Source: Candidatus Poribacteria bacterium
GTDB lineage: Bacteria; Poribacteria; WGA-4E; WGA-3G
Length of the DNA stretch: 64,000 bases
Assembly: GCA_965197475.1 (NCBI GenBank)
Contig: CBDANF010000003.1
Location: 3,008,001-3,072,000, forward strand
Direction of reading: 5' to 3'
The notes under the pieces are model-generated. The model did no database searches. It was not told the DNA's origin and saw nothing but the letters and a program-made list of their open reading frames with translations. The position numbers were made by a program, and so were the translations under genes. How positions within the stretch are numbered: position 1 is the stretch's first letter; the number at the start of each line of letters is the position of its first letter. Positions 8,703 through 25,370 of the stretch are shown one piece after another.

Positions 8703-11099
8703 TTACGAATGCAAAGGTGTTTGCCATGCGGATTTGAGGTTATCTATTGAAGTATCCACAATTCGCTTGCCTGTTAATCCATTGATGACAAATTCTGGTG
8801 TTTCTGTAACGGTGCCTAAACAACCAAGTGGCACTTCAGCCATGTGATTTTCAAAAGCATCTTGGAGTTGTTGTTCAATTTCAACAATAAAACGGCTATT
8901 TGATTCTGAAAATAACAGAAAATCGTCAAAAGGAATTTCTGCTCCGGTCGGGACGTTGTCAAGATTTAATGACATGCCGTAACCACCCGAAAATGCCATT
9001 TCCGCTGCTGCAACACCGATACCGCCTTCAGAACAATCATGACAGGAACGCACCAAACCACTATTGATCGCAGCACTGAGTGTTTCCATAGTCAACTTTC
9101 CCTCACTCGGACGCACAATAGGCGCGGTGTTACCGATAAAATCGTGGATATCAAAGTAGTGAGAACCGCCTAATTCAGCATAGGTATTTCCAACAACATA
9201 AATCAGATTACGAGGGGATTTCACATCCATAGTAACTGCTTTACGAATATCCGGCAGGACACAGATTGCTGAAATGAGCAACGTCGAAGGAATTGCACGT
9301 TGCTCACCGGTTGTTGTATCACGGTATTCATTGTAAAGGCTATCTTTCCCAGAGATGAACGGTGTCCCGTAAGCAGTTGCAATGTCATAACATGCCTTCG
9401 CCGCACGCACTAACGCACCAAGCCGATCCGGTTTATCAGGGTTTCCCCAACAGAAATTATCCAGCAAAGCCGTCTTTTCAAGTGTTCCGCCGACAGCGAC
9501 TATGTTTCGGAGTGCCTCATCAATTGCCGATGCCGCACTGAGATACGCATCAACATCGCTGTATTTTGGGTTAATACCGTTCGCAACAATGACTGCCTTC
9601 CGATTTCCTAAGACTGGTGTCGCAACGCACGCATCGCTCGGTCCGTCGTTTTTGACTCCAACGAGAGGTTTGACAACTATACCCCCTTGCACCTCGTGAT
9701 CATACTGACGGATAACAGATTCTTTGCTTGCTATATTTGGACTTGCAAGGAGTTTACAAAGGTCTTCTGTATAGGATTCGGTTTGTCTATCTCGCGACGG
9801 CATTTCAGGGTGTTGTGGCGGTTGCCAAACAGCTTTTTTGACATGTTGCGGCAAGCCTTTATGCAGAAATTCCATATCCAAATCCGCTACCACTGCACCT
9901 TCATAAAAAACCTGCAACCTGTGAGTATCTGTGAAACTGCCAAGGACGGTTGCCTCAACCATTTCTGCTTCACAAATTTCCATCAGTTCCTGCAGATTTT
10001 CAGGTGGCACAGCGATTACCATCCGTTCTTGTGCTTCCGACAACCAGATTTCCCACGGTTCCAATCCCTCGTATTTTAGAGGGACCCGTTCCAGATGAAC
10101 CTCTGCGCCTGTGTCTTCTCCCATTTCACCCACAGCAGATGAGAACCCACCTGCACCGCAGTCAGTTATAGAACGGTACAGGTTTCGATCGCGTGCCTGT
10201 AACAGTGCATCAACTATCTTCTTCTCCATAATGGGGTTGCCGATTTGAACAACACTGCCGAGGTTTTCTGAAGTATCGTCCAATTCTGCCGAGGAGAAGG
10301 TCGCACCGTGAATTCCATCGCGACCAGTGCGACCACCAAGCGCAACAACAAGATCACCGGGTTCAACAGATTTATCACATCTGTCTCTTGGTATCAAACC
10401 GACGTTTCCACAAAAGACGAGGGGGTTTGCAGTATAACGTGTGTCAAAAAGAATAGCACCGTTTGCGGTAGGAATTCCCATCCGGTTACCGTAGTCGCGA
10501 ACACCAGCAACGACACCCTTCAACACGCGTTTAGGGTGGAGTGTCCCCTTCGGCAACTTCTCATAAGGTGTATCCGGCATACCGAAACAGAAAACATCTG
10601 TATTCAGAATCGGTTTTGCCCCCAGTCCAGTGCCGAGTGAGTCTCGGATAACGCCACCAATACCGGTGCCTGCTCCGCCATAAGGTTCAATCGCTGATGG
10701 ATGATTGTGCGTTTCCACCTTAAATACAAGATTGAAATTTTCATCAAATTCAATAATGCCCGCATTGTCTGAAAAAACGGAGACACACCAAGGTTTGTCG
10801 ATCTCCTCAGTTGCGCGTTGAATATAGGTTGGAAACAAACCATCAATTCGCTCCGTTTCCTTGCCCTCTTCAGAGTAAAGAATCATGCTTTTAAAGGTTT
10901 TGTGAACGCAATGCTCCGACCACGTTTGCGCAATAGTCTCAAGCTCTACATCGGTTGGATTGCGTTGCAGTGCTGCAAAATGGGTCTGAATAGTCTGCAT
11001 CTCGTTTAGATTTAGGGACAACGTGCCTTCTTGACTGATACGCATCAATTCAGTATCATCTGCATTCAAAATTTTAAATTCATTAACCTTATTGGACAT
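8703..11099 (-). CDS. purL: Phosphoribosylformylglycinamidine synthase II
   Basis: WSEHCVHK, KVETHNHPSAIEPYGGAGTG, GRDGIHGA, DCGAGG, SEAQERM, QYDHEV; likely start ATG 11099 after GGAGA. Confidence 0.95.
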   Translation of the reverse strand: MSNKVNEFKILNADDTELMRISQEGTLSLNLNEMQTIQTHFAALQRNPTDVELETIAQTWSEHCVHKTFKSMILYSEEGKETERIDGLFPTYIQRATEEIDKPWCVSVFSDNAGIIEFDENFNLVFKVETHNHPSAIEPYGGAGTGIGGVIRDSLGTGLGAKPILNTDVFCFGMPDTPYEKLPKGTLHPKRVLKGVVAGVRDYGNRMGIPTANGAILFDTRYTANPLVFCGNVGLIPRDRCDKSVEPGDLVVALGGRTGRDGIHGATFSSAELDDTSENLGSVVQIGNPIMEKKIVDALLQARDRNLYRSITDCGAGGFSSAVGEMGEDTGAEVHLERVPLKYEGLEPWEIWLSEAQERMVIAVPPENLQELMEICEAEMVEATVLGSFTDTHRLQVFYEGAVVADLDMEFLHKGLPQHVKKAVWQPPQHPEMPSRDRQTESYTEDLCKLLASPNIASKESVIRQYDHEVQGGIVVKPLVGVKNDGPSDACVATPVLGNRKAVIVANGINPKYSDVDAYLSAASAIDEALRNIVAVGGTLEKTALLDNFCWGNPDKPDRLGALVRAAKACYDIATAYGTPFISGKDSLYNEYRDTTTGEQRAIPSTLLISAICVLPDIRKAVTMDVKSPRNLIYVVGNTYAELGGSHYFDIHDFIGNTAPIVRPSEGKLTMETLSAAINSGLVRSCHDCSEGGIGVAAAEMAFSGGYGMSLNLDNVPTGAEIPFDDFLLFSESNSRFIVEIEQQLQDAFENHMAEVPLGCLGTVTETPEFVINGLTGKRIVDTSIDNLKSAWQTPLHS

Positions 11100-11249
11100 T
11101 ACTTTCTCCGTTATTTCCAAAGTTAAGCCACAGCCAAGCTGCAATGTTGGACACATCCAGAAGCGAAGCTAAAACGCAAGGATAGACCGGGACCTGCTAA
11201 AGAAAGATTTCGCTGCTTGATAAATCCACGTGTCGTTTTTGTCTCTGTT

Positions 11250-11501
11250 TTATTCTGAGTGTTCGTTATGGTTTTCATCTTCGGCGAGTGCATCAACTTC
11301 TGTCCGAAGTTCCTCAGGCGTTTGGGTAGTGGCGGCTTTCTCAAAGAGCATTTCAAGCCGGTTGCGGTCATCAAGTCTGCGAATCGTTTCAGCAAGTGGT
11401 TCTGACACATTGTGAAATCGGAGTTGTACGAGTTTGAGAATATATTCGCGTTTGGTTCGCGTTTCGCCTTGTTGTAAGTAATGTTCAGCCATGCTCTGCA
11501 T
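11250..11501 (-). CDS. Small C-terminal Rpn ORF (RpnS-like, 83 aa)
   Basis: Internal AAGGAG 9 nt upstream of ATG (MQSMAEHY...), open to the stop at 11250. Confidence 0.5.
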   Translation of the reverse strand: MQSMAEHYLQQGETRTKREYILKLVQLRFHNVSEPLAETIRRLDDRNRLEMLFEKAATTQTPEELRTEVDALAEDENHNEHSE

Positions 11502-11680
11502 GAGTTGTTTCTCCTTCTCTGAGATGTCCAAAAACGGATGGTTTTCAGAAACTATTTGATCTAACACCGGCCGCTCATCAATCGGACGTCTGTGTTTTCT
11601 AATAACCATTTCGCGCTTCGGTCCGGAAACTGTTCGACACGTGTTTTTAAAGCCTCGAGTAGATCGTTGATGTCTAACAT
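11250..11680 (-). pseudogene. Internally deleted Rpn/YhgA-like (PD-(D/E)XK) gene: N-terminal ~30 codons joined out of frame to the C-terminal domain
   Basis: From ATG 11680: MLDINDLLEALKTRVEQFPDRSAKWLLEN, then frame switch to HRRP...MQSMAEHYLQQGETRTKREYILKLVQLRF...LEMLFEKAAT (DUF4351/Rpn C-terminus-like); nuclease core absent. Confidence 0.6.
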
Positions 11681-11815
11681 AGTGATATTTTACTAATTTC
11701 CTCCCTTTCCGCGCTGGTGTTTCCTTTTTTATATTATACGGTTTCTCGCTTGTTTTCTCAAGTTTTTTGTGTTAGAGTTACCACTTTGTCCGGAATATAA
11801 ACACAACCAATAACC

Positions 11816-12043
11816 TTACGTTTCAGTTATCTCAGCAGGCAGATTATCAATAATCCGAGCAGATTCCACACTCACATAAACAATATGCTTAATTGCCGCA
11901 ACCAAATCGCGCGGACCGGCAAACCAACCGTTTGGGTCGTTGACGATGCCGCTGTCCTTATATGTTTTATATAGTCCCGAACAATTAACTATCTCAGAGC
12001 GATGTGCATCTTCTGGAATATCTGAATTTAAGTGTGCCATCAT
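11816..12043 (-). pseudogene. Displaced, diverged copy of the Type ISP RM gene 3' end
   Basis: SDIPEDAHR..IVN...KDSGIVNDPNGWFAGPRDLVAAI..I..VSVES.RII.NLPAEITET aligns with the C-terminus of 13007-17830. Confidence 0.85.
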
Positions 12044-12999
12044 ATCTCGACCCGATAGGCCATTTGTTCTTTCAGATGCCATAAGAGTGCCCTCACACCG
12101 TCAACAGTGGTTTCGGCTTCCATTAGTTCGGGGAGATTGTTGACGGTGCACTCAGGGTCATCCATTGGTGCCGTGATATAATGCATAACTTGTATGGGTG
12201 TCCAATATGGGAAATCACCGTAAATCGTATGTTCTATTTCATCAGAAAACCAATCACTTTGTCGAATTTCTACCATTTCAGCGAGATTGCTCTGTATTCC
12301 GAAATCCATCAGCGAGATGACGTGTAATTGTTGATTGCCATTGCGCGTTTGGTCATATTGTGTTTGGTATTCGTATACTTGATCAAGGAGTTCTTTGGCT
12401 TTCTGGTTCCAAGGGTGATTGTTAAGTAATAAATGAATAGGTTTACAAGTATACGAAAGACCTTCTAACGTTTGTTTTTCATTCACGTGTGCCGGTGGAT
12501 GGGTCGGAAAAAGTGCTAATTGTTGGCTGTCTTTCTCGTACTGAACTGATTCTAACAATTTTTGCCAGTGTTCACACTGAGTCGCAATGTCTTCCAATAC
12601 TTTGTCTTTTTCGGTTTCTTCCATCTCATGCACGGCATAATAATTTCCCCAGTTACTGCAGAAATCCATGAAATCTTTCAATGTAAATTGTTGAATTTCA
12701 GATATTTCGTATCGTTTTTTCATCCAATCTAAGTATGAATCGGGTTTAGGAAGGAGCACGAGCAATTGATAGAGTTTATCCAGAAGGTTAATGTCTATAA
12801 GGTAAAAAGCATCATTTTTCTCTTCATTTTCAAGTTCGGAAAATAATTCTCTTATTGAGTTATTGCGCGATAATTTGTATGGGTGGAGTGTAAGGAGTGC
12901 CTCAAGGCGTTCTATTGGTTCGCGAAGCGCGTCAAGTTCTTTCCTAAACTCTTTTTTCCATTCTTCATGTGTCATATCTACTTCCTTCATTATCTGCAT
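12040..12999 (-). CDS. Hypothetical protein (cargo between the Type ISP gene and its displaced 3' end)
   Basis: 319-aa ORF starting 7 bp after the ISP stop; no family recognised. Confidence 0.7.
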   Translation of the reverse strand: MQIMKEVDMTHEEWKKEFRKELDALREPIERLEALLTLHPYKLSRNNSIRELFSELENEEKNDAFYLIDINLLDKLYQLLVLLPKPDSYLDWMKKRYEISEIQQFTLKDFMDFCSNWGNYYAVHEMEETEKDKVLEDIATQCEHWQKLLESVQYEKDSQQLALFPTHPPAHVNEKQTLEGLSYTCKPIHLLLNNHPWNQKAKELLDQVYEYQTQYDQTRNGNQQLHVISLMDFGIQSNLAEMVEIRQSDWFSDEIEHTIYGDFPYWTPIQVMHYITAPMDDPECTVNNLPELMEAETTVDGVRALLWHLKEQMAYRVEI

Positions 13000-13006
13000 T
13001 CCTATT

Positions 13007-16000
13007 TTAGGTTTCAGTTGTTGTAATTTCAGCCGGTAAGTTGTTAATGATGCGGGTGGATTGGACGCTGATGTGGATGATGCGGGCGATTGCCGTGACT
13101 AAATCGCGCGGATCAGCAAACCAACCGTTCGGGTCATTGACGATGCCGCTGTCCTTGTCTGTTTTTATATAATAGCGGTCAATGAACCACTCCAGCGGTG
13201 ATCTGCCGTTGACGATATAGCGGTAAGCGTCTTCTGGGATACCGGATAAGCGAACATTCGTATTGATGTCAAGCTGTCTTTTCATATCAGGCCCATAACG
13301 CATCGCTTTTTCAGTTAGTAGGAATAGGTTTGGGTCCGCATCTTCAAGGTCTGTTGGTGATGAGGACATATTCGGAAACTCAACTCTGAGCGGGTATTGT
13401 TCACACGTCTCGTAATTGAGGTGGAATTCTGCCAATTTATATCCTGCGTCAGCAAAGGCAGTGAAGTCTGGGGCATAAGGGATACGCGGTAACATTTTGG
13501 ACAGATCATTTGCGAACTGTTCTCGGTAGCTGGGGGCGTGCAGGATACCGTAAACATAATAGAAGATTTCATCTTTGGTAATTTTATCCGTTCTATAATG
13601 TTTTTGGAATGCCTTAAGTGCGGTATCTGATATATTGTCAATACGATCAGGTGTGTCGTCAACATCAAGAAGTGATTCTGATGCGTCTGGTGTATCCGAT
13701 GGTTTCGGATATTGGTAGCGTGGAAAACATCGCGTGGCTTCATTGAAACCGAGATCTGGCATGGTATCAACCATGAGAGTGGAAAAATCCTTTTTTGAAC
13801 CCTTCCCAGGGGTACAGATGACAAGATTTTCACTGGTACTCTCAGGGAACATCTGGTTCATCTGGTATGCGCGAGATATGAAAGTATGATCAGCGTAACA
13901 ATTAGTGGTAACAAATGGTCGGTACGCTACATTTCGTATGTAGTTGACATTGAATTCTGTTTCTATTCTCGTCATCCGATTTATAAGTTCATCAGACCAC
14001 TTTATATTTGATGATTGACGTTGTGCTGCTTCGTCTGCAGTAAGATCAGAATTATCACTCATATCAGAACGGGCTGCAAGATAATCTTGGGTCATCCTCA
14101 AAGCGATTTCTGCACAAGTATCCTTTGTAAAATTGTATATGTATGCGTCTCTGGTCGTTTCTAATCCTCTCACATATAATCTAAATATCGCATTATCCGC
14201 TTTACCTTTCTTTGTATCCTCCGAACCCATTGGATAGAAATTTGCAAACGCTTCATTGCGTTGGTCAATCCAGTCGTTGTGTTTATCGGGTGTGATGGTG
14301 TCCCAATCAGTAAATCCCGAGATTGACTCCACCTCGCGTAATTCCTCCAACTTCTTCTGGCGTGTGAGGTAGTCGCCGATGTCGCGGTATTGTATTTTGC
14401 AGCCTTCGTGTGTTGCGTTCGGATTTTTGACAAGAATTGAAATACCGACAGGTGCACGTGAACCACTACCAAAGATTTTACCCCCTTCTTGTCGTGAACG
14501 TTCTCCTTGTGTACGCTGATTTCCTCGTAAATGTAATATGTGAATCGAACTAAACTCCTCTACTAAGCACGCTCGAATACCTGCATCTGTGTTACTATCA
14601 ATCCATGATCCGTTCGTGACAAAGGCAATGATACCCTGTTCGCCAATTCTATCGGATGCCCACCGGATTGCCATTTTGTATGTATCGTAAAGACTCCTTT
14701 TATTCGTTGTTGTAGCATACACTAAATATGTCTCTTTGATACGTTCTTCAAGATCAATATATTCCACATTCGGATTGTCATCTGTAGATCTTCTCTGTCC
14801 GATTGACCATGGGGGATTGCCAACTATGACTTGGATTGGCAGTTTCTGTTGACGTTCGGCGCGTGTGCTGTTGTCTGGCAGCCACTCTTTCGGGAAAAGT
14901 GTAGGTTCGTCTTCTTTTTTGTTCAGATTGAAGGTGTCTGCCAAGACAATACCGTTGAAAGGTTCGTAGGTGCTATCTTCTCCGCGCCGTCCGCGGAATG
15001 TCTCCTCTATGTTGACGGTGGCGATGTAGTATGCCAGCAGGACGATCTCGTTTGCGTGGAGTTCTTCGCGATATTTGCGTTCAAGATCGACATCTTGGAT
15101 AATATCGGACTGCAGCAGGCGTGTGAGAAAAATGCCAGTGCCAGTGAACGGATCCAGCACATGCACACCCTCATCGGTTAAGCCTCGTCCAAACTCATCT
15201 TGCAACACCTCATTGGCACTGTGCAAGATAAAATCCACAACCTCAACTGGTGTGTAGACGATACCGAGTCGTTCAACTTCCTTTTTCAATGCGGTTACGA
15301 AAAACTTCTCGTAGAGTTCTAACAGCACACGTTGACGTGCTTCGCTATTGTCAAGTCCACGGGCGCGATTCTGGACGCTTTCGTAAAATCCTTCTAAATC
15401 GCGCGTTTCGTTCTCAAGTCCGAATTCGCCAAAATCGTTTTGGAGTTTGTTCAGTGCGTTTGCTACTGGGTTGCCGGACGCAAAATCGTAGTTCTCAAAG
15501 AGTGCTTCGAAAACGGGGCGGGTGATAATGTGCTGTGCCATCATATCAATAGCACTCTCACGGGTGATTGAGTCGTTGATCGTTTCTGTCAACTCGCTAT
15601 GGAAATCATCAAACCACTCTTGCAGCGCATTATTTTCAGGATCCTCTAATAGATTTTCAATCCGTCCAACGAGTCGCTTGAAAATATCTGCGACATCTTT
15701 TGCCCAACTTTCCCAGTATCTTCTGTCGCCGCATTTTTCTACAATCTTAGCGAAAATTGCATCGGCGGGAATACCGATCGGCAGCGTCAACTGCTCAGGG
15801 TCTAAAGTTCCTTCTCTATATTCACCATCGCCATTTTCCTCTTCAATGATAATAATTTCAGTTGGTTCGGTGTTAAGGTCAATTTTATTGATTTCGGCAT
15901 TCAGTCTGTCATCGTGTGAACGGAGTGCGCGGAGGACACCCCACACCGCGGCAAATCTTTCATTATCGTTGAGTGCTTCAACAGGGTCTACACCTGTCGG

Positions 16001-17830
16001 AATTGCGACCGGCAATATGATGTATCCATACGCTTTATTGGGTGCTTTTCGCATTACACGCCCGACTGCCTGAACAATGTCAACGTGTGAGTTTCTCGGT
16101 GTCATGAAAAGCACAGCATCAAGCGCGGGAACGTCAATACCTTCAGAGAGGCATCTCGCATTAGAGAGAATACGGCAAACGCCTTCAGAATCGCCTTTTA
16201 GCCATTCAATTAGCTTTTTTCGTTCAAGTGCGTTATTTTTACCATCAACGTGTGCGGTTTCGCATGTGAAATTTTGTGGACGTTGATCTTCTGGTACCTT
16301 TTCAATAGCAGTTTCTATGATGCCGTTCCAATGTTCAACAAGGTTTTCTGACGACTTGATGGTGTTTGTGAATGCGATGGCGCGGGTGAGCGGTGTGATA
16401 GAATCGTCGTTTGGTGATTTTCTTTCGGGGTTCTGTAGTGCGCGCCAACATCCCACTATCTTTGTCGCGTCGTTAATGTTAACCTCACTGCCGCCATTAC
16501 TGAGATAGTTGTGTAGCGTATCTTGCACACCTTGTTCGGACATGGCGAGCACTACAACCTTATAGTCGGAGAGTAGGTCTTGTTCTACTGCTTTGGAGAA
16601 GGGGAGTCGGTGAAATTCGGGACCGTATATGTTCGGATCGTCCATAGAATACACGTCAATATCGTGTTTTGCTGCTTTTGTTTTCGCACTTTCAGTATAA
16701 AGACGAGGTGTCGCAGTCATATAGAGGCGTTTTTTAGCACGGATACGATCATTATCATGGACAAGTACAAAAGGCGATGTATCATCATCAAGTCTATCAA
16801 CACCAGTGGTTCTGTGTCCTTCATCGCAAAAGATAATATCAAAAGCGGGGACACCAGTGTTCTGTGCTTCTTCCACTTTAGGCAGTGAATGATAGGTGCA
16901 GAAAACAACTCTCATATTACCTTCATCGCTTTTTTGTAGTGCTTCAGAGATAACGGTTTCATCAGTGGTAACAGGGAATTCCAATTCCATGAGGGTAGCG
17001 TCTTCGTTCGCTTTTCCTGCTTTTGTATCGGAGCATATACCGATGTAGCGATGTGAAATTTTCTGCTGTTCTGCCCATTCACGCATTGCCTGTGCAAAAA
17101 GTCCGATGGAAGGGACAAGATATAATACCCTGCCGCCGACACCAGCAATCTTTTCAGCGATTCGGAGTGCGGTGAAGGTTTTCCCTGTGCCGCATGCCAT
17201 AATCATTTTACCGCGGTCGGATTCTTGAAAACCTTTGGTAACATCGTCAAACGCTGCTTTCTGATGTTCCCGCAGACTGAACGTTTCCAGTTGATAGTTT
17301 AGTTGGTCTGGTTCTTGTAGGCTGAGGTCGGGCCACTGAACGGGTCGACTTGCGAGGTCTGCTGCACTGATCCGTTGGCATGGGGGTTCTAATCCATCAA
17401 TGGCTTTTAGTAGGTTTTTACTCCAGCTTTTCCCAGTATCAACAAAAATACGTGCTGTAAAGGGTTGACGATTAGATTGTGAAATGAACGTATCAATATC
17501 GGATTTTGATACCCGTTTGTCTTCTGCATAGCACTTGCACTGGATAGCACAAATACCATTATTACGTTCTATTGCGACAAGGTCAATGCCTAAATCAGTA
17601 CGAGTGAACCCTGGTTGGTTCGCCGCCCATTCTGCCCATAGATACACTTCCGAAAACCGCTTTTTATAGAAAGGGTCTTCAAGGAGATATGCTCTTACTA
17701 ATCGTTCGAATAGTCTGCCTTTTCCAAATTGTGTGTTGGCGTTTTGACAGATGTAATTAAGCGCGTCATAGAATCCGTTGTCTGACTCTTCGTTTCCGAT
17801 GAATAAGGACATCTGTCTTGCATCTGACAT
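13007..17830 (-). CDS. Type ISP restriction-modification enzyme (Mrr-like nuclease, SF2 helicase, N6-adenine MTase, TRD; LlaGI/LlaBIII-like)
   Basis: GIDLVA...IQCKCY nuclease; MACGTGKT, DEGHRT, TATPR, QAVGRVMRK helicase; LDPFTGTG and GNPPW MTase; LRGNQRT and IVNDPN conserved blocks. Confidence 0.92.
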   Translation of the reverse strand: MSDARQMSLFIGNEESDNGFYDALNYICQNANTQFGKGRLFERLVRAYLLEDPFYKKRFSEVYLWAEWAANQPGFTRTDLGIDLVAIERNNGICAIQCKCYAEDKRVSKSDIDTFISQSNRQPFTARIFVDTGKSWSKNLLKAIDGLEPPCQRISAADLASRPVQWPDLSLQEPDQLNYQLETFSLREHQKAAFDDVTKGFQESDRGKMIMACGTGKTFTALRIAEKIAGVGGRVLYLVPSIGLFAQAMREWAEQQKISHRYIGICSDTKAGKANEDATLMELEFPVTTDETVISEALQKSDEGNMRVVFCTYHSLPKVEEAQNTGVPAFDIIFCDEGHRTTGVDRLDDDTSPFVLVHDNDRIRAKKRLYMTATPRLYTESAKTKAAKHDIDVYSMDDPNIYGPEFHRLPFSKAVEQDLLSDYKVVVLAMSEQGVQDTLHNYLSNGGSEVNINDATKIVGCWRALQNPERKSPNDDSITPLTRAIAFTNTIKSSENLVEHWNGIIETAIEKVPEDQRPQNFTCETAHVDGKNNALERKKLIEWLKGDSEGVCRILSNARCLSEGIDVPALDAVLFMTPRNSHVDIVQAVGRVMRKAPNKAYGYIILPVAIPTGVDPVEALNDNERFAAVWGVLRALRSHDDRLNAEINKIDLNTEPTEIIIIEEENGDGEYREGTLDPEQLTLPIGIPADAIFAKIVEKCGDRRYWESWAKDVADIFKRLVGRIENLLEDPENNALQEWFDDFHSELTETINDSITRESAIDMMAQHIITRPVFEALFENYDFASGNPVANALNKLQNDFGEFGLENETRDLEGFYESVQNRARGLDNSEARQRVLLELYEKFFVTALKKEVERLGIVYTPVEVVDFILHSANEVLQDEFGRGLTDEGVHVLDPFTGTGIFLTRLLQSDIIQDVDLERKYREELHANEIVLLAYYIATVNIEETFRGRRGEDSTYEPFNGIVLADTFNLNKKEDEPTLFPKEWLPDNSTRAERQQKLPIQVIVGNPPWSIGQRRSTDDNPNVEYIDLEERIKETYLVYATTTNKRSLYDTYKMAIRWASDRIGEQGIIAFVTNGSWIDSNTDAGIRACLVEEFSSIHILHLRGNQRTQGERSRQEGGKIFGSGSRAPVGISILVKNPNATHEGCKIQYRDIGDYLTRQKKLEELREVESISGFTDWDTITPDKHNDWIDQRNEAFANFYPMGSEDTKKGKADNAIFRLYVRGLETTRDAYIYNFTKDTCAEIALRMTQDYLAARSDMSDNSDLTADEAAQRQSSNIKWSDELINRMTRIETEFNVNYIRNVAYRPFVTTNCYADHTFISRAYQMNQMFPESTSENLVICTPGKGSKKDFSTLMVDTMPDLGFNEATRCFPRYQYPKPSDTPDASESLLDVDDTPDRIDNISDTALKAFQKHYRTDKITKDEIFYYVYGILHAPSYREQFANDLSKMLPRIPYAPDFTAFADAGYKLAEFHLNYETCEQYPLRVEFPNMSSSPTDLEDADPNLFLLTEKAMRYGPDMKRQLDINTNVRLSGIPEDAYRYIVNGRSPLEWFIDRYYIKTDKDSGIVNDPNGWFADPRDLVTAIARIIHISVQSTRIINNLPAEITTTET

Positions 17831-17868
17831 ATAGGTTTCCTGTTTTCAAAAAATTGTGTTAACGATCT

Positions 17869-17982
17869 TCATTCCTTAAACGAAGCAGTAACCCGTGGAA
17901 TACTCTCCTCACAGGCAAACCGTTCGATGCTGGATGCACCAACAAACCCAACGGTATCTGTATTCTCATTGATATATGCAGC
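17869..17982 (-). repeat. Direct repeat copy 3 of the last 114 bp of the TIM-barrel gene (24549-24662)
   Basis: 9/114 mismatches to the gene by eye (7 synonymous, 2 non-synonymous); includes the stop codon. Confidence 0.95.
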
Positions 17983-18007
17983 AACCATTTTAGGCGTTAT
18001 TTCTCCG

Positions 18008-20851
18008 TTATTTCGTGTTTATATCCGCATCAATGCCGACGAACATACTCCATTTACCACCGCCCTGACTAACTTTAACCAGCAAAAGGTTATCTCCTGC
18101 CTTCAAACCAACCTTGAAGCTATCCTGAAAGTTTTCTGCACCACGGTTCACAGCTTTTTTATACACTACTTTACCGTTGAGCCACACCTTGATAGCGTCA
18201 TCACTTCCAGCAAACATCCTCACGTCAGACTGATCTGTATCAGATTTAAGAGTAATGAGTGCATAAGCGGAATGGTCTTTCAAGTAAAAATCATCTGCTT
18301 TAGTTCTTCTATTCTTGCCGCGAACGAAATCGATTCTATTGACAACTTCATTGACATTATTATCGCTGGTGTCAGAAATCTTTGCCCGCGTCCAAACATA
18401 ATCACCTGCGACATCGCCTGCTTTCGCTCCGTTTTCTGCCACGGTGTTTTCAGTCACAACGCCTTTACTAATGGTAGCCAGTGAATCGCTGTCAATGGAA
18501 TTTGCACCGCCTTGTCCGGGTTCAGTTGGCGCGATCATCCAGAGCCACGGACCAGCAATTTTGTCCACGTTGTAGATGAGGTGCCACATATTATGACGGA
18601 TATTAGGGCTCTTTTCAAGTAGTACTCGAATAGGGGAAAAATCTTCAATCGGATTTTGAGTTATAGATAATTCCCTTAAGTTTGTCATCTCTGCAAGCGG
18701 TTTAATATCTGTGATTTGGTTTCTATCAATCTTTAAAACACGCAAATTCTGCATTTTTGCGAGCGGACGAATGTCATGAATCTGATTCTTACGGAGATTT
18801 AAATTTGTTAAATTCGTTGCGTGTTCAATACCAGTAAGGTCGGTTATACCTTGATCACTGACATCAAAATTTCCGTGCGTATTAAGTCCGACTAAGTTTA
18901 GCATATCCAATTGCGTAATGGCAGATTCTGGAGACAATTTCAAAGCTTTGCGCACCGCAGCCGCTAAATTGGCATCCGGTATTGAGATTGCTTTAGGTGG
19001 TGGCAGCAGAGAAGTCATGGTGATTGGAAACTTCTGTACGGTAAAATATCCATGCTTATCTATGACTCGAAGCCGTACAGAAGTCGCCTTAGGTGTTAAC
19101 CGCGTTGTGACGAATTCAACCGTGCTTTTTTCACCGTTCAAGGCTTTAAAATCCTGCAATTTTGAGAAAGGAGATTTATGAGATTCGGCGATAAGGAATT
19201 GTACCTGATGGAGTCCATCGGGGTCAGTTATGTCAAATTGGAAACGTATACCGTTAGCCTCATCTTCGCGTGTTGGGGTAGCCATCTGAATTGTCGTGGG
19301 TTGGTTGAGGCCAGTTATGTGAGAATTGAAATAGCGATGTACATTCAACCACTGTGCGGCACAGAAAGATGTCGACATCGGTTCAGTTGAATATAAATCT
19401 ATCCACGGTTTCAAATTGTTGCGATAGTCGTGTGATAATCCAAACGCATGTCCGAGTTCGTGGACGGTCACATCACTTTCATCAAAGCAGTAACCTGAAG
19501 CGGGGATGACTACTGTTCCGCCAAAATCACCGCGGTGTTCGCCAAATCCGCATGCGAAACCATCAAGGAGTTCTATGCTACTATCTAAAGCAGCAAGATA
19601 GATGTTGTCATAGGTATCGAACTGTTTATCAATTTCATCCCATATCTTCATGGACTTTTTTTGATAATATTTATCTGGGAACTTGCCTTTTACATGATGT
19701 ACGACCACATTTCCAGAAGGATCAGTTTCAAACTTAAAGGTTTTCCTACCGAATCCGTGGTATTCCATCTGTGAGGCGAAAATTTGCTGTACCTTCTTTA
19801 TTAATTTATCTAACTTTGCATCTATATCAGGTTGAGGGGAGCGGTCACTTGGGATGAAGTAGATTAAGCGGACAGTATTTGGTTCGCTTTGTGATTTTTT
19901 ACTTTCCATGATCTTCTGGACACGGAGTGTTCCATCATCAAGACCGCTACTTGCGATGGTGGTTCCGTCCAGTGAGAAGGCTGCTTCCATAACCCAACCG
20001 GTGTATCCTGTAATTGCAGTGATTTTTTTACCGTTTTCAACAGACCAAATGCTTACTTCTGCATAACTAGCACTGGCGAGACTCTTACCGTCCGGCGAAA
20101 AGGCGAGATCGAATACCGAAGTAACCTGTTTAATGCTACCGACTACTTTCCAATTTGACACCGACCATAGTTTGATATTCCCTTCCCTACCTGCACCGGC
20201 AAAGGTTTGACTATCTGGTGAAAAGGCAATAGCATCGATCCAGATTTTATCACATTCCAACCGGGCAATAACTTGTCGTTTCTCAACATCCCAAATTTTT
20301 ATATGTTTTCCATCTACGGCGGCGAGAAGTTGCCCATTCGGTGAAAAAACGACTGCAAGCACCCAGTCATCATGTTTAAATGTTCCGATCTCATTATGGT
20401 TATCAACATCCCATAATTTCACACTAATGTATCCTGCACTCGCGAGGGTGTGTCCATCAGGTGAAAATGCTAAAGAAGTGATATTTGATGGTCCAAAACC
20501 ACCGAAACTATGTTTTAACGTGGCAATATTTTGTTTACGATGGACATCCCAAAGCTTCAAGACACGGTCATCGCTACCACTCGCGAGTAATTTTCCATCC
20601 GGAGAGAATGCTACAGTATTAACTTTGTCCGTATGTCCAGTAAGGGTTGTTGAGGTGTTATCCTGTAAATTCCATATTTTAACGGTGTGGTCATCACTGG
20701 CACTGGCAACAAGCGAGGCATCCACAGGTGAGTATTCGACCGCTTGGATAGAACCACCATGTTTAAGAACTGTGGGTTGCTGTGCCAAACCAGAGAAACA
20801 AAAATTCAATAAGAGCGCAAAAAGAACAAGTAAAAACTTATTTGATTGCAT
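18008..20851 (-). CDS. Secreted WD40-repeat, zinc-metallopeptidase-motif, LRR, C-terminal beta-sandwich protein (paralog A)
   Basis: Signal peptide; GHTDKVNTVAFSPDG..LASGS...KLWD repeats; HELGHAFGLSH; internalin-like LRRs (LNLRKNQIHDIRPL); DDAIKVWLNG C-domain. Confidence 0.85.
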   Translation of the reverse strand: MQSNKFLLVLFALLLNFCFSGLAQQPTVLKHGGSIQAVEYSPVDASLVASASDDHTVKIWNLQDNTSTTLTGHTDKVNTVAFSPDGKLLASGSDDRVLKLWDVHRKQNIATLKHSFGGFGPSNITSLAFSPDGHTLASAGYISVKLWDVDNHNEIGTFKHDDWVLAVVFSPNGQLLAAVDGKHIKIWDVEKRQVIARLECDKIWIDAIAFSPDSQTFAGAGREGNIKLWSVSNWKVVGSIKQVTSVFDLAFSPDGKSLASASYAEVSIWSVENGKKITAITGYTGWVMEAAFSLDGTTIASSGLDDGTLRVQKIMESKKSQSEPNTVRLIYFIPSDRSPQPDIDAKLDKLIKKVQQIFASQMEYHGFGRKTFKFETDPSGNVVVHHVKGKFPDKYYQKKSMKIWDEIDKQFDTYDNIYLAALDSSIELLDGFACGFGEHRGDFGGTVVIPASGYCFDESDVTVHELGHAFGLSHDYRNNLKPWIDLYSTEPMSTSFCAAQWLNVHRYFNSHITGLNQPTTIQMATPTREDEANGIRFQFDITDPDGLHQVQFLIAESHKSPFSKLQDFKALNGEKSTVEFVTTRLTPKATSVRLRVIDKHGYFTVQKFPITMTSLLPPPKAISIPDANLAAAVRKALKLSPESAITQLDMLNLVGLNTHGNFDVSDQGITDLTGIEHATNLTNLNLRKNQIHDIRPLAKMQNLRVLKIDRNQITDIKPLAEMTNLRELSITQNPIEDFSPIRVLLEKSPNIRHNMWHLIYNVDKIAGPWLWMIAPTEPGQGGANSIDSDSLATISKGVVTENTVAENGAKAGDVAGDYVWTRAKISDTSDNNVNEVVNRIDFVRGKNRRTKADDFYLKDHSAYALITLKSDTDQSDVRMFAGSDDAIKVWLNGKVVYKKAVNRGAENFQDSFKVGLKAGDNLLLVKVSQGGGKWSMFVGIDADINTK

Positions 20852-20876
20852 GTGGAAGTCTCCTTTTATTAATAGC

Positions 20877-20994
20877 AAGACTTACGCAAATTTAGACTCC
20901 TTGGCGAAATTGATCGTAAATCACCGAAGAACGCGAAATGAATTGCACGACTACATATCAAATAACGCTTAAAAGAGCAACCTGCGTAAGTTTT
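20877..20994. mobile_element. MITE-like element with ACTTACGCA...TGCGTAAGT terminal inverted repeats
   Basis: aagacttacgca ... tgcgtaagtttt flanking about 95 bp of non-coding DNA. Confidence 0.55.
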
Positions 20995-21198
20995 ATAATA
21001 TTTTCAAAAAATCAAATATAAGACTCATGCATATTGAAAAGGATTGAAAATTCCCATTTGTCGCCGGCAGGTAATCACTCAATAAATCGCATCAATACAT
21101 TATATCAGCAATTTTTCATTAATATACACTTGTCTTAATCAGATTATTATACCCATTGAGATATTCTATGTCAACTAAAAAATTAAATTAATAATTTC

Positions 21199-21313
21199 AG
21201 GTCTTACACAAATTGAGCAGAGAAGGACATATTTTATGCAAAAAGTCGTTATTTTGGCGTTTTTAACCCCTAAATTCCTTATCATGGGACTTTTGAACTT
21301 ATTGCGTAGTCCT
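21199..21313. mobile_element. Second, degenerate MITE-like element of the same TIR family
   Basis: aggtcttacaca ... tgcgtagtcct, similar length to the 20877 element. Confidence 0.45.
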
Positions 21314-21358
21314 AAATAGGTGAAAATCTTTGTTGCAGCAAAGCTAAATTATGAAATT

Positions 21359-21472
21359 TCATACCTTAAACGAAGCCGTAACCCGCGGAATACTCTCCTC
21401 ACAAGCAAACCGTTCGATGCTGGATGCCCCTACAAACCCTATGGCATCAGTATTCTCATTGATAAATGCAGC
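21359..21472 (-). repeat. Direct repeat copy 2 of the last 114 bp of the TIM-barrel gene
   Basis: 2/114 mismatches to 24549-24662; preceded by a 25-bp linker carrying GGAGA and an in-frame ATG (possible 42-aa ORF 21359-21487). Confidence 0.95.
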
Positions 21473-21497
21473 AACCATTTTAGGCATTATTTCTCCG

Positions 21498-24335: not shown

Positions 24336-24349
24336 GTTGAAGTTCCTTT

Positions 24350-24508
24350 TATAGTAGATTTTAGAATTACTTGGACATTGTTATCGGTCCAGTTGGGAAA
24401 CAGTTCCTACCGCATATTTTGTAGCACAAACTTTTAGTTTGTGTCGTCCTTGCGCAAACTGAAAGTGGACGCTACAGCAGTGTCCAGATAATTACAGATT
24501 TTACTATA
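24350..24508. mobile_element. MITE-like element with about 27-bp imperfect terminal inverted repeats and an internal GTAG...CTAC hairpin
   Basis: atagtagattttagaattacttggaca versus tgtccagataattacagattttactat; internal gtagcacaaac..gtttgtg...gctac. Confidence 0.55.
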
Positions 24509-24548
24509 ATAGATTGAAAATCATGCTGTAATTTATATCATCCGATTT

Positions 24549-25370
24549 TCATTCCTTAAACGAAGCCGTAACCCGCGGAATACTCTCCTCACAAGCAAAC
24601 CGTTCGATGCTGGATGCCCCTACAAACCCTACGGCATCAGTATTCTCATTGATAAATGCAGCCTCCGGTGCTTTTGAGATAGGACCACCGTGTGACAAGC
24701 AGATCACATCAGGATTCTGTGCCTTCGCAGCATCACAAATTTCTTGCACTCGGACTGCTGCGTCTTTGAGTGTAAAAGCGGTTTCAGCACCAATTGTGCC
24801 ACCAATCGTAGTACCCATGTGTGCAATAATAACGTCCGCGCCGACCTTTGCCATATTCTCAGATTCTTCGGGGTTAAAGACATAGACGATGGTAAACAGA
24901 TCCATCTCATGTGCGATGCCGATTGTCTCAACCTCTTTATAGAACCCCATTCCTGTTTCTTCAAGGGTCACCCGAAAAGTGCCATCAATCACGCCAACGG
25001 TAGGAAAGTTATTGACACCATCAAAACCTACATCCCGAATCTGCTTAAGAAAGTTACTCATTCTTCGTGTAGGATCGGTACCGTTCACGCCAGCGATTAC
25101 CGGTGTTTCCTTCACAACAGGTAAAACTTCTCGTTCACCCATTTCCATCACGATGGCGTTTGCATCACCGTACGCCAAAAGCCCAGCGCATGATCCAAAC
25201 CCTGACATCCTGTAGCGACCAGAGTTGTAAATCACAATCAGATCCGCGCCACCTTTTTCCGCAAATTTCGCAGTGATACCTGTTCCTGCACCGACAGCAA
25301 GCAAGGATTTACCTTTATCTAACTCCGATTTGAGTCGATCTAACACCTCATCTCGTGTATAATCTGGCAT
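24549..25370 (-). CDS. Phosphoenolpyruvate hydrolase family / TIM-barrel signal transduction (Tm-1-like) protein
   Basis: GAGTGITAKFAEKGGADLIVIYNSGRYRM, NFPTVG, HGGPI, GFVGASSIER. Confidence 0.88.
   Translation of the reverse strand: MPDYTRDEVLDRLKSELDKGKSLLAVGAGTGITAKFAEKGGADLIVIYNSGRYRMSGFGSCAGLLAYGDANAIVMEMGEREVLPVVKETPVIAGVNGTDPTRRMSNFLKQIRDVGFDGVNNFPTVGVIDGTFRVTLEETGMGFYKEVETIGIAHEMDLFTIVYVFNPEESENMAKVGADVIIAHMGTTIGGTIGAETAFTLKDAAVRVQEICDAAKAQNPDVICLSHGGPISKAPEAAFINENTDAVGFVGASSIERFACEESIPRVTASFKE

What the first reader, a model, noticed from the sequence alone, without database searches (positions are those of the whole stretch)
11816..13250. Second, independent case of 'gene > cargo > displaced 3' end' at the Type ISP restriction-modification gene
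Seen: a 319-aa hypothetical gene starts 7 bp after the ISP stop. Overlapping its stop (ATGA) is a ~75-codon relic that aligns with the ISP C-terminus (SDIPEDAHR..IVN..KDSGIVNDPNGWFAGPRDL...LPAEITET versus SGIPEDAYR.IVN..KDSGIVNDPNGWFADPRDL...LPAEITTTET), with a short deletion and many synonymous differences. The target gene and cargo are unrelated to the TIM-barrel case, but the geometry is the same. Inference: incoming DNA replaced the 3' part of the RM gene and brought a passenger. In Type ISP enzymes the target-recognition region lies just upstream of this conserved tail, so such events could also swap specificity.
Basis: partly seen in the sequence, partly recalled or inferred. Interest (0 to 1): 0.7.

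Follow-up and report, generated by a model that had tools for sequence, protein, structure and literature searches.

The report
Displaced tail of a restriction gene
A short, decaying second copy of the end of a large restriction-enzyme gene lies just behind a small inserted gene, a footprint of how new genes are slotted into this bacterium's defence region by a process of an already known general kind.

Summary
A 1607-aa Type ISP restriction-modification gene (13007..17830, minus) is followed by an unassigned 319-aa gene. Behind that lies a 5'-truncated second copy of the last ~90 ISP codons (tblastn E 1e-21).

The copy is a pseudogene relic. Its orthologues in three relatives share its lesions and are frame-broken.

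Comparison with Candidatus Poribacteria genomes shows that the stretch between the ISP gene and purL is an insertion hotspot. Of 38 ISP loci, 7 carry one or two same-strand tail relics. The relics have at least six different left junctions. They separate different passengers, including Ppl, a Schlafen-ATPase, PDC-S11 and unknown genes.

One junction fuses a purL 5' fragment to an ISP tail, which shows an illegitimate join.

The "TIM-barrel case" lies directly upstream in the same island. At least four further gene > cargo > 3'-relic cases with unrelated genes occur in this genome.

Best reading: additive recombination anchored in the gene's 3' end. [quoted passage not shown] It is generic, not specific to the ISP gene. 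A linked change of specificity is not supported.

The parts
13007..17830 (-). Type ISP restriction-modification gene (1607 aa), the anchor gene
   Evidence: Pfam matches: Mrr_cat_2, ResIII, Helicase_C, ISP_coupler, N6_Mtase and Type_ISP_C (E 2e-91). Full-length match to LlaBIII 4xqk (1095 bits, residues 20-1600) and to LlaGI 5ffj.
13007..13270 (-). Resident copy of the duplicated stretch (last ~88 codons of the ISP gene)
   Evidence: Aligns with the relic. Sequence read.
13010..13095 (-). Last ~85 nt of the resident tail ('block B'), an unusual allele
   Evidence: 46-62% nt identity to the 8 other resident tails compared, whereas the block just upstream is 96% identical to L095. 90% identical over 62 nt to the tail of L032. 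The resident tail is therefore a mosaic.
12040..12999 (-). Passenger gene 'cargo319' (319-aa ORF; probable true start ATG 12975, 311 aa); function unknown
   Evidence: No match in Pfam, PADLOC, NCBIfam or PHROGs. The family has 33 proteins, of which the one that carries a name is a hypothetical protein of Candidatus Poribacteria. Found in 17 of 176 genomes of the phylum, all in one family. The AlphaFold2 model is all-helical with pLDDT 63. No Foldseek PDB match at E <= 0.001. No PDB sequence relative.
11816..12082 (-). 88-codon frame holding the displaced ISP 3' end. Homology runs from about the cargo stop (12040) to the relic's own stop (11816-11818).
   Evidence: tblastn E 1e-21. Internal deletion and a compensating +1/-1 indel pair. 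Orthologous copies in L083, L096 and L041 are frame-broken. No Rfam match and no fold signal.
11250..11609 (-). 119-aa ORF between the relic and purL; unknown, only fragments kept in the syntenic relative
   Evidence: No family match. Two short DNA matches in L083 behind its relic 2.
8703..11156 (-). purL, the conserved right-hand border of the hotspot
   Evidence: Syntenic purL-purQ-membrane protein-UvrD-like block in L083, L057, L086, L091, L092 and L049.
24549..25370 (-). PEP_hydrolase-like TIM-barrel gene (273 aa), left-hand border of the hotspot and second anchor gene
   Evidence: Pfam PF09370, E 8.6e-115. In L057 the homologous 273-aa gene lies about 1.1 kb upstream of purL.
21498..24335 (-). 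WD40 protein gene (945 aa), passenger behind the TIM-barrel gene
   Evidence: Pfam WD40 families.
21365..21502 (-). First displaced 3' end of the TIM-barrel gene
   Evidence: tblastn of the TIM-barrel C-terminus: 80% identity over 46 aa, E 4e-19.
18008..20878 (-). WD40/LRR protein gene (956 aa), second passenger, paralogue of the first
   Evidence: Pfam WD40 and LRR_4. 81% identity between the last 120 aa of the two.
17872..18078 (-). Second displaced 3' end of the TIM-barrel gene, 42 nt before the ISP start
   Evidence: 59% identity over 73 aa, E 3e-20. One metagenome contig (X4, record 26, 1744 nt) runs from the TIM-barrel gene (24664 upward) straight into this copy (17983 downward) and on into the ISP gene.

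Best explanation
**What it is**
- The 88-codon frame is the old 3' end of the Type ISP gene, pushed downstream.
- It is not a gene.

**How it arose**
1. DNA from a related strain carried an ISP 3' end followed by the 311/319-aa gene.
2. That DNA paired with the conserved ISP tail of the recipient.
3. It was added rather than exchanged. On the left the join was homologous, inside the tail. On the right the join was non-homologous, at about the cargo's stop codon.
4. Two routes give this result. One is homology-facilitated illegitimate recombination of a linear fragment. The other is single-crossover (Campbell-type) entry of a circle holding tail plus cargo.
5. The ISP gene stayed whole with an imported end. 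The recipient's own last ~90 codons were left behind the cargo as a target duplication, and have since decayed.

**Wider setting**
- The event is old and is shared by several relatives.
- The same process has acted again and again between the TIM-barrel gene, the ISP gene and purL. It has stacked passengers, many of them defence genes, separated by tail relics.
- It also acts at unrelated genes elsewhere in this genome.

**Shown and inferred**
- Shown: the relic, its decay, its orthologues, the stacking, an illegitimate purL'|tail junction, and presence/absence forms in metagenome contigs.
- Inferred: the order of events and which of the two recombination routes was used.
For: 1. **The relic is real and terminal.** It matches ISP residues 1513-1605 at E 1e-21 and no other ISP part is detectable downstream.
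2. **The relic is decaying.**
   - The window copy has a ~25-nt deletion plus a +1/-1 indel pair.
   - Its orthologues L083_r2, L096_r1 and L041_r share some of these lesions and are frame-broken.
   - Of 18 relics, 11 show a frameshift or an in-frame stop.
3. **The relic comes from a different allele than the resident tail.** In its last 85 nt it is 88-89% identical to the resident tails of L096 and L097, but only 58% identical to its own resident tail.
4. **A syntenic relative shows stacking.** G094 (L083) reads ISP > Ppl > Schlafen-ATPase > relic 1 > PDC-S11 > cargo fragment > relic 2 > purL.
5. **The unit can itself be displaced.** In G074 (L096) the unit 'last ~74 nt of a tail, spacer, cargo319, relic' is colinear with window 13062..11828 (82%). 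It sits 2.4 kb behind that genome's ISP stop, displaced by later insertions.
6. **The pattern recurs.**
   - 7 of 38 ISP loci with at least 3 kb of downstream sequence have same-strand downstream relics.
   - All 15 extra tail hits, in 10 loci, are on the ISP strand.
7. **Left junctions differ between passengers.** Examples are cargo319|relic, p404|relic, p917|relic, purL'|relic and p494-flank|relic.
8. **An illegitimate join is directly visible.** A purL 5' fragment (codons ~16-75) is joined to ISP tail codon ~1574 at the same nucleotide in L097 and L098.
9. **Metagenome contigs show other forms of the locus.**
   - TIM-barrel gene joined to purL (11110 to 24548).
   - WD40 gene joined to purL without the ISP gene (11115 to 18009; depth 182, 176 and 672 in X1-X3).
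   - TIM-barrel gene continuous with its relic 2, then the ISP gene (17983 to 24664).
10. **The geometry is found across the genome.**
    - Copies of a gene's last 90 aa in short frames within 12 kb: 15 downstream on the same strand, 6 upstream on the same strand, 0 on the opposite strand, among 3294 ORFs of at least 200 aa.
    - Four of these have one unrelated same-strand ORF between gene and relic. The anchors are NAPRTase, a pyridine-nucleotide oxidoreductase, a PSD-family protein and a TPR protein.
11. **Published models describe the same process.**
    - Homology-facilitated illegitimate recombination was proposed for sequential displacement in T6SS and Rhs loci (PMC5361080, passages read).
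    - 'Insertion with long target duplication' has been described around RM genes (PMC2853133, passages read).
Against: - **No pre-insertion form was found for the ISP case.** No genome or contig shows an ISP gene with an intact common-type tail running directly into the 119-aa ORF and purL.
- **The low-depth joints that could be such a form are ambiguous.** Joints 11951-11957 to 13173-13176 (depth 2-14) may instead come from other ISP alleles that align better to the relic than to the odd resident tail.
- **Cargo319 or fragments of it lie just upstream of purL without any ISP gene nearby.** This is seen in G175, G162 and G157. ISP loss, or another order of events, must then be assumed. G175 and G167 do keep a 34-nt relic remnant behind the cargo.
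- **The two candidate routes are not told apart by these data.**
- **The relatives are not independent samples.** They are metagenome-assembled genomes found through ISP similarity, and many share ancestry, so counts are loci, not events.
- **One observation is only explained by assuming recent exchange.** The cargo 3' end plus relic is 90% identical between the window and G094, while the flanking ISP gene and purL are 79-80% identical. Recent exchange is assumed, not shown.
Confidence: 0.65

Rival explanations
1. The relic is what remains of a second, tandem ISP gene (ISP1 > cargo > ISP2) whose first 4.5 kb were later deleted. No replacement tail was imported.
For: - These genomes hold several ISP and ISP-tail-bearing genes: 5 tail matches in the own genome and up to 10 in a relative.
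- In G167 the cargo with its relic remnant is followed 3.3 kb later by the start of a full ISP gene.
- L046 has a tail relic directly before a 5'-truncated ISP gene.
- L096 holds a distant ISP-like fragment (aa 698-783, 31-41% identity) behind its ISP stop.
Against: - No other ISP part is detectable in the window's 1.6 kb downstream.
- 16 of the 18 relics run to within about 16 nt of the ISP stop codon (alignment ends). Random decay of a whole gene should leave internal pieces too.
- The same geometry occurs behind single housekeeping genes such as NAPRTase and an oxidoreductase.
- The purL'|tail fusion is a duplication-type or insertion-type junction, not a deletion scar.
Confidence: 0.12
2. 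Tail plus cargo units are recombinase-free mobile cassettes. Recombination between the two direct tail copies loops out a circle (one tail plus cargo). After transfer the circle re-enters any homologous ISP tail by a single crossover. The conserved tail thus works as a capture site that builds an array.
For: - Passengers flanked on both sides by tail copies: cargo319 in the window and in L096; p917 in L056 (relic > p917 > relic) and in L099; p404 in L098.
- Stacks of two relics in L083, L016/L098 and L048/L097.
- The cargo 3' end plus relic is 90% identical between two genomes whose flanks are 79-80% identical.
- A life cycle of this kind has been proposed for RM units with long direct duplications (PMC2853133, discussion passage).
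Against: - No circle junction was seen. Contigs cannot show rare forms.
- Right-hand junctions of one passenger differ: p917 is followed by purL', by a long relic, or by a short relic. This fits one-off illegitimate joins better than a cycling unit.
- The same geometry at unrelated genes argues for a general process rather than a dedicated site.
Confidence: 0.15
3. A site-specific integrating element used the ISP tail as its attachment site and carried a replacement 3' end, as islands in tRNA or gene 3' ends do.
For: The geometry (intact gene, insert, partial 3' copy in direct orientation) is that of integrase-mediated insertion into a gene's 3' end. Several breakpoints fall within about 15 nt of the same place, the boundary before the last ~85 nt.
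Against: - The 0.96-kb insert holds one ORF with no recombinase family match.
- No integrase-like gene lies between the TIM-barrel gene and purL.
- The repeats are 84% identical at best.
- Relic left ends differ by up to about 200 nt between junction classes.
Confidence: 0.04
4. The 88-aa frame is a working small gene, translationally coupled to the cargo gene through the ATGA overlap. It could be a tail mimic that modulates the ISP enzyme.
For: The frame is open in the window and overlaps the cargo stop. The last ~85 nt are well conserved among relics.
Against: - The orthologous copies in L083, L096 and L041 carry frame-breaking indels.
- The window frame is open only through a compensating +1/-1 pair and reads 'out of frame' for about 7 codons.
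- G167 and G175 keep only 34 nt of it.
- The 88-aa frame has no family match in Pfam; the other family libraries were not searched with it.
Confidence: 0.03

Closest known systems
Insertion with long target duplication (Nobusato et al. 2000, recalled; Furuta, Abe and Kobayashi 2010, PMC2853133, passages read)
   Same: - Genes are inserted without any mobility gene.
- They are flanked by direct repeats longer than 30 bp that are a duplication of the target.
- Repeat lengths vary from tens to hundreds of bp.
- The pattern was found by genome comparison and is associated with restriction-modification loci.
   Different: - There the RM system is the inserted cargo and the target is arbitrary sequence. 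Here the RM gene's own 3' end is the duplicated target, and the cargo is another gene (unknown, or other defence genes in relatives).
- Here the events stack repeatedly at one site.
- An empty site aligned to both repeats was seen here only for the neighbouring TIM-barrel case, not for the ISP case.
Sequential C-terminal displacement in Rhs, CdiA and T6SS effector loci (Jackson et al. 2009 as cited; Kirchberger et al. 2017, PMC5361080, passages read)
   Same: - Incoming DNA is anchored by homology in the conserved part of a long gene.
- The other end is joined illegitimately.
- Old 3' ends are pushed downstream and accumulate as arrays of orphans, all in direct orientation.
- The proposed route is homology-facilitated illegitimate recombination.
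   Different: - In those loci the displaced 3' end is the variable toxic tip and is kept with its immunity gene, which gives a selective reason for retention.
- Here the displaced piece is the conserved, non-variable tail of a restriction enzyme and decays.
- The variable recognition part is not in the relic.
- The passengers are free-standing genes.
Integron cassette arrays
   Same: New cassettes enter next to a fixed gene and push older ones away from it. Single tight ORFs are separated by a repeated element.
   Different: - There is no integrase.
- The repeated element shows no attC-like folded site (fold z-scores 0.07 to 0.93).
- Repeat boundaries vary.
Defence islands at hotspots between conserved core genes
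   Same: A variable set of defence genes lies between two conserved genes: the TIM-barrel gene and purL. The set includes a Type ISP RM gene, Ppl, a Schlafen-ATPase, PDC-S11 and TIR-like genes.
   Different: Here the insertions leave readable footprints: duplicated 3' ends of the left-hand gene and duplicated 5' ends of purL. These footprints record the order and manner of the insertions.

Membership tests
Type ISP restriction-modification enzyme (LlaGI / LlaBIII type), for the 1607-aa gene | Single polypeptide with an Mrr-like nuclease, an SF2 ATPase motor, a coupler, an N6-adenine methyltransferase and a C-terminal specificity domain, in that order | tested here: met
   Pfam: Mrr_cat_2 52-175, ResIII 184-376, Helicase_C 483-595, ISP_coupler 705-830, N6_Mtase 835-1092, Type_ISP_C 1214-1575. 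Full-length phmmer match to LlaBIII 4xqk and to LlaGI 5ffj.
Type ISP restriction-modification enzyme | ATP-dependent translocation, cleavage on collision, and hemimethylation of an asymmetric site | not testable with these tools
   Biochemical properties; only sequence was available.
Insertion with long target duplication (criteria of PMC2853133) | Insert shorter than 20 kb, with no other mobile element or mobility gene | tested here: met
   The insert is about 1 kb with one ORF. It has no recombinase or transposase family match.
Insertion with long target duplication | Direct repeats longer than 30 bp flank the insert | tested here: met
   About 230-270 nt of the ISP 3' end is present twice in direct orientation.
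Insertion with long target duplication | A related genome has the empty site, with one copy of the repeat aligning to both flanks | tested here: inconclusive
   - No locus or contig shows ISP > (119-aa ORF) > purL directly.
- The low-depth joints 11951-57 to 13173-76 are ambiguous.
- The criterion is met for the adjacent TIM-barrel case (joint 17983 to 24664).
Insertion with long target duplication | The inserted genes are an R and an M gene (criterion (i) of that study) | tested here: not met
   The passenger is one unassigned gene. The RM gene is the target, not the cargo.
Rhs / CdiA / T6SS-type C-terminal displacement | The displaced 3' end is the variable tip and is followed by its cognate immunity gene | tested here: not met
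   The relic covers the conserved tail (residues ~1513-1607). The variable part is 1159-1400. The next ORF downstream has no family match.
Rhs / CdiA / T6SS-type C-terminal displacement | Arrays of orphan 3' ends in direct orientation behind one full-length gene | tested here: met
   Up to two relics behind one ISP gene in L083, L016/L098 and L048/L097. All relics are on the ISP strand.
Site-specific integration into a gene's 3' end | An integrase gene in the insert and identical core repeats at both ends | tested here: not met
   No integrase. The best repeat stretch is 84% identical. Boundaries vary.
Integron | IntI integrase with attI, and folded attC sites bounding the cassettes | tested here: not met
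   No integrase among the ORFs of the island. The tail end has no fold signal on either strand and no Rfam match.
Phase-variable specificity shuffling (hsdS-type shufflons) | Silent recognition-domain cassettes in inverted orientation, with a nearby recombinase | tested here: not met
   The relic is in direct orientation, lacks the recognition region and is decayed.

The most novel reading that the evidence does not exclude
The conserved last ~100-270 nt of the Type ISP gene act as a recombinase-free capture site. Tail plus cargo units loop out by recombination between direct tail copies, move between Poribacteria, and re-enter any ISP tail by a single crossover. A defence island is thus built as an ordered cassette array whose relics record its history. 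The same homology-cassette route may spread the WD40/LRR eukaryote-like genes of these sponge symbionts.
Probability: 0.15. Interest if true: 0.75.

Novelty: new variant of a known kind. Interest (0 to 1): 0.48.

Why it matters
How defence islands gain genes at hotspots that hold no mobile element is mostly unknown. Here the insertions left readable scars: stacked copies of the 3' end of the left-hand gene and, in two relatives, a purL 5' fragment fused to a tail.

These scars point to recombination anchored on one homologous side, with the old gene end kept as a duplication. They give the order of the insertions. They also show a route by which unrelated defence genes and eukaryote-like WD40/LRR genes enter the genomes of uncultured sponge symbionts.

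For annotation, the lesson is practical. Short ORFs that copy the end of the gene two places upstream are relics, not genes. They also flag the gene in between as a recent arrival and, at this locus, as a candidate defence gene.

Tried and rejected
- **Function of cargo319.** Nothing usable came from any route:
  - Pfam, PADLOC, NCBIfam and PHROGs gave no match.
  - The ESM Atlas gave no usable hit.
  - A PDB profile search gave no match.
  - The AlphaFold2 model is poor (pLDDT 63, pTM 0.43). Foldseek against PDB gave nothing at E <= 0.001, and the listed weak rows are meaningless for such a model.
- **Cargo319 as a diverged, frame-shifted recognition domain of a second ISP gene.** Rejected. 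It has no similarity to ISP beyond chance and no Type_ISP_C match. It is all-helical, and it is an intact conserved family.
- **The conserved tail end as a structured RNA or an attC-like site.** No Rfam match at E <= 1. Fold z-scores on both strands of the relic and of the resident tail are 0.07 to 0.93.
- **A terminator in the relic.** None was found. Promoter-like and terminator-like hits in 11100-13300 are no more frequent than in shuffles.
- **RNA evidence.** No RNA holder was listed.
- **Pre-insertion allele.** Joints 11951-11957 to 13173-13176 at depth 2-14 could be that allele, but they are equally explained by other ISP alleles, so they were not used as evidence.
- **Earlier notes of this scan.** None exist for this genome.
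- **First search for cargo relatives.** The single-sequence search in genome contigs found only 2 distant loci. The six-frame search of the phylum replaced it.
- **A 70-residue fragment sent to Pfam.** It gave nothing and was repeated with whole ORFs by reference.
- **Literature.** Searches for 'Type ISP' with 'defense island' (5 papers hold both terms, 4 listed) and for Poribacteria with restriction-modification and defense (32 papers, 8 listed) showed no title or abstract describing displaced Type ISP ends. Only the listings were seen. Supplementary files of the two papers read in passages were not available.

Full report
**1. The observation**

On the minus strand the window holds three successive frames:
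- a 1607-aa gene at 13007..17830;
- a 319-aa ORF at 12040..12999;
- an 88-codon frame at 11816..12082, which overlaps the stop of the 319-aa ORF.

The large gene is a Type ISP restriction-modification enzyme.
- Pfam finds Mrr_cat_2, ResIII, Helicase_C, ISP_coupler, N6_Mtase and Type_ISP_C in order.
- It matches LlaBIII (4xqk) over residues 20-1600 and also matches LlaGI (5ffj).

The match between the small frame and the ISP end is far beyond chance.
- tblastn of the ISP protein against the 1.6 kb downstream gives one significant hit: ISP 1513-1605, 51 of 93 identical, E 1e-21.
- All other hits have E >= 0.043.
- The best DNA stretch is 83.8% identical over 99 nt.

Logan contigs of three runs cover relic, cargo and ISP tail without a difference (records 1, 9 and 17). 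They may stem from the data the genome was assembled from.

- The family's conserved start is M9. The cargo therefore probably starts at 12975, 31 nt after the ISP stop, behind AAGGAAG.
- The relic has a deletion of about 24-25 nt between CCGC repeats, plus a +1/-1 indel pair about 22 nt apart. The relic's 'IVN' is therefore not homologous to the ISP 'IVN'.
- Substitutions sit mainly at third codon positions (3, 5 and 18 in 56 codons). This is the signature of divergence between working alleles before displacement.

**2. It is a relic, not a gene**

The same cargo|relic junction occurs in relatives: L083 (G094), L096 (G074) and L041 (G081). In L085 (G167) and L086 (G175) only a 34-nt remnant is left.
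- The copies share lesions with the window's copy. The +1 is shared with L083_r2, the -1 with L096_r1, and the same in-frame stop in the ISP frame occurs in all three (WIN_relic, L083_r2, L096_r1).
- Each relative's copy carries further frame-breaking indels.
- Of 18 relics aligned to one reference tail, 11 show a frameshift or an in-frame stop. Some indels near relic 5' ends may be alignment noise.
- There is no Rfam match and no fold signal.

**3. The surroundings: a hotspot between a TIM-barrel gene, the ISP gene and purL**

The closest ISP relatives are metagenome-assembled genomes titled Candidatus Poribacteria. G094 is syntenic with the window from the ISP gene through purL, purQ, a membrane protein and a UvrD-like gene. 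Gene maps:

| Genome or locus | Order of genes |
|---|---|
| Window | ISP > cargo319 > relic > 119-aa ORF > purL |
| G094 (L083) | ISP > Ppl > Schlafen/HATPase > relic 1 > PDC-S11 (DUF4268) > cargo319 fragment (aa 267-319) > relic 2 > purL |
| G074 (L096) | ISP > fragment of a 917-aa gene > distant ISP-like fragment > DUF2779 gene > last ~74 nt of a tail > cargo319 > relic > TIR-like genes > Ppl > Schlafen/HATPase |
| G081, G106, G100 | ISP > geneA > geneB > cargo319 (a relic follows only in G081) |
| L049 | ISP > geneA > geneB > purL |
| G177 (L098) | ISP > 917-aa gene > purL'(5' fragment)\|relic > Schlafen/HATPase > relic |
| G176 (L097) | ISP > four genes with a relic among them > purL'\|relic > geneA > geneB |
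| G180 (L056) | relic > 917-aa gene > relic |
| G179 (L057) | no ISP gene: sulfatase > TIM-barrel gene > relic > DUF433/DUF5615 pair > relic > purL |

Cargo319, geneA, geneB and the 917-aa gene match nothing.

Of 38 ISP loci with at least 3 kb of downstream sequence, 7 have same-strand downstream relics. All 15 extra tail hits, in 10 loci, lie on the ISP strand.

**4. What the junctions say**

- Left ends of relics differ between passengers but are constant for a given passenger. Examples are cargo319|relic, p404|relic and p917|relic.
- In G074 the stretch 'end of a tail, spacer, cargo319, relic' is colinear with window 13062..11828 at 82%. That is the window's arrangement pushed downstream by later arrivals.
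- One relic in L097 is of the distant L041-type allele (91% identity in the conserved block), behind a window-type resident ISP gene.
- In L097 and L098 a purL 5' fragment is fused to ISP tail codon ~1574 at the same nucleotide...GAGACT(A/T)TT|CCGCG.... This junction can only arise by an illegitimate join of the right end of an 'ISP tail ... purL 5' end' segment to an ISP tail.
- The window's resident tail is itself a mosaic. It is 96% identical to L095 in the conserved block, 46-62% identical to the 8 other resident tails compared in the last 85 nt, and 90% identical to L032 over 62 of those nt. The relic keeps the common allele (88-89% to the L096 and L097 tails).

**5. The process is not specific to the ISP gene**

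The 'TIM-barrel case' is the neighbouring block: PEP_hydrolase-like gene (24549..25370) > WD40 gene > its tail relic (21365-21502) > WD40/LRR gene > second tail relic (17872-18078) > ISP gene.

Metagenome contigs show alternative forms of the locus.
- The TIM-barrel gene is joined to purL.
- A WD40 gene is joined to purL without the ISP gene (depth 182, 176 and 672 in X1, X2 and X3).
- One contig runs from the TIM-barrel gene straight into its relic 2 and then into the ISP gene. This shows that relic 2 is the working tail where the WD40 genes are absent.

A genome-wide scan looked for copies of a gene's last 90 aa in short frames within 12 kb.
- It found 15 downstream on the same strand, 6 upstream on the same strand and none on the opposite strand, among 3294 ORFs of at least 200 aa.
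- Of the 11 cases examined, five have exactly one same-strand ORF between gene and relic.
- One of those five is a tandem paralogue of its anchor (as is one further case among the 11). In the other four the passenger is unrelated to the anchor.
- Those four anchors are NAPRTase, a pyridine-nucleotide oxidoreductase, a PSD-family protein and a TPR protein.

**6. Mechanism**

The best reading is additive recombination anchored in the 3' end of the left-hand gene.
1. Incoming DNA from a related strain pairs with the conserved tail.
2. The other end is joined without homology.
3. The gene is kept whole with an imported end.
4. The recipient's end is left as a duplication behind the passenger.

This is the route proposed for T6SS and Rhs arrays (PMC5361080, passages). 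It yields what Furuta et al. call insertion with long target duplication (PMC2853133, passages). Entry of a circle holding tail plus cargo by a single crossover gives the same product, and these data cannot exclude it.

Shown here:
- the relic and its decay;
- its orthologues;
- the stacking;
- one illegitimate junction;
- presence/absence forms in metagenome contigs.

Inferred:
- the order of events;
- the route used.

**7. Evidence against, and limits**

- No pre-insertion form of the ISP case was found.
- Cargo319 lies next to purL without any ISP gene in three genomes.
- The cargo end plus relic is 90% identical between the window and G094, while the flanks are 79-80% identical. I explain this by recent exchange, without proof.
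- The relatives are related metagenome-assembled genomes found through the ISP gene, so counts are not independent events.
- Three breakpoints fall within about 15 nt of the boundary before the last ~85 nt. This is unexplained.

**8. Specificity**

The recognition part (residues 1159-1400) is highly variable among close relatives and lies between conserved flanks, so swaps by ordinary recombination are plausible. The breakpoint visible for this event lies in the last ~90 nt, so a linked specificity swap is not supported.

**9. Verdict**

- The process is of a known general kind, seen here in a new setting: the RM gene is the target, other defence genes are the cargo, and relics are stacked at one hotspot in uncultured sponge symbionts.
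- Interest is moderate.

Noticed in passing
window 17872-25370: The 'TIM-barrel case' lies directly upstream of the ISP gene. A PEP_hydrolase-like gene is followed by two paralogous WD40(/LRR) genes of about 950 aa, each followed by a copy of the TIM-barrel gene's 3' end. One metagenome contig shows the form without the WD40 genes.
   Followed up: partly
G000 C2:1153261-1155855; C2:1319081-1321261; C3:75915-79648; C3:1891371-1898157 (loci L100-L103): Four further 'gene > one unrelated ORF > copy of the gene's 3' end' arrangements. They lie behind NAPRTase, a pyridine-nucleotide oxidoreductase, a PSD-family protein and a TPR protein. The passengers are an unknown 288-aa gene, an unknown 317-aa gene, a weakly metallopeptidase-like 350-aa gene and a 1017-aa LRR/WD40 gene.
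   Followed up: partly
L041 6219-8391; also L006, L031, L039, L049, L013, L044, L037, L048: A two-gene module (about 193 aa and about 547-586 aa, overlapping, with no family match) follows the ISP stop by about 55 nt in several loci and recurs in at least 9 loci. It is a candidate ISP-linked or stand-alone defence pair.
   Followed up: no
L016 8100-10853; also L021, L056, L013, L030, L044: A 917-aa gene with no family match is a recurrent passenger behind ISP genes. In L056 it is flanked by tail relics on both sides.
   Followed up: no
window 13010-13095: The last ~85 nt of the resident ISP gene are an unusual allele: 46-62% nt identity to the 8 other resident tails compared, and 90% to one distant locus over 62 nt. 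The change starts at the same boundary where two relic junction classes also begin.
   Followed up: partly
window 11832-12195 versus L083 8617-8981: The cargo 3' end plus relic is 90% identical between two genomes whose flanking ISP and purL genes are 79-80% identical, although in the relative both are pseudogene pieces.
   Followed up: no
G000 C3:145739-145987: A tail-like match (44% identity to the ISP tail) lies in a 161-aa open frame, apart from two full-length genes of about 1040-1100 aa with the same kind of tail (C3:164667-164918, C2:980575-980847). It is possibly another relic of an RM gene end.
   Followed up: no
L057 6215-6782: A DUF433/DUF5615 (PIN-like) pair sits between two ISP tail relics in a genome that has no ISP gene at this locus.
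   Followed up: no
L046 4718-7476: A tail relic lies directly before a 5'-truncated ISP gene (885 aa, starting in the coupler region).
   Followed up: no
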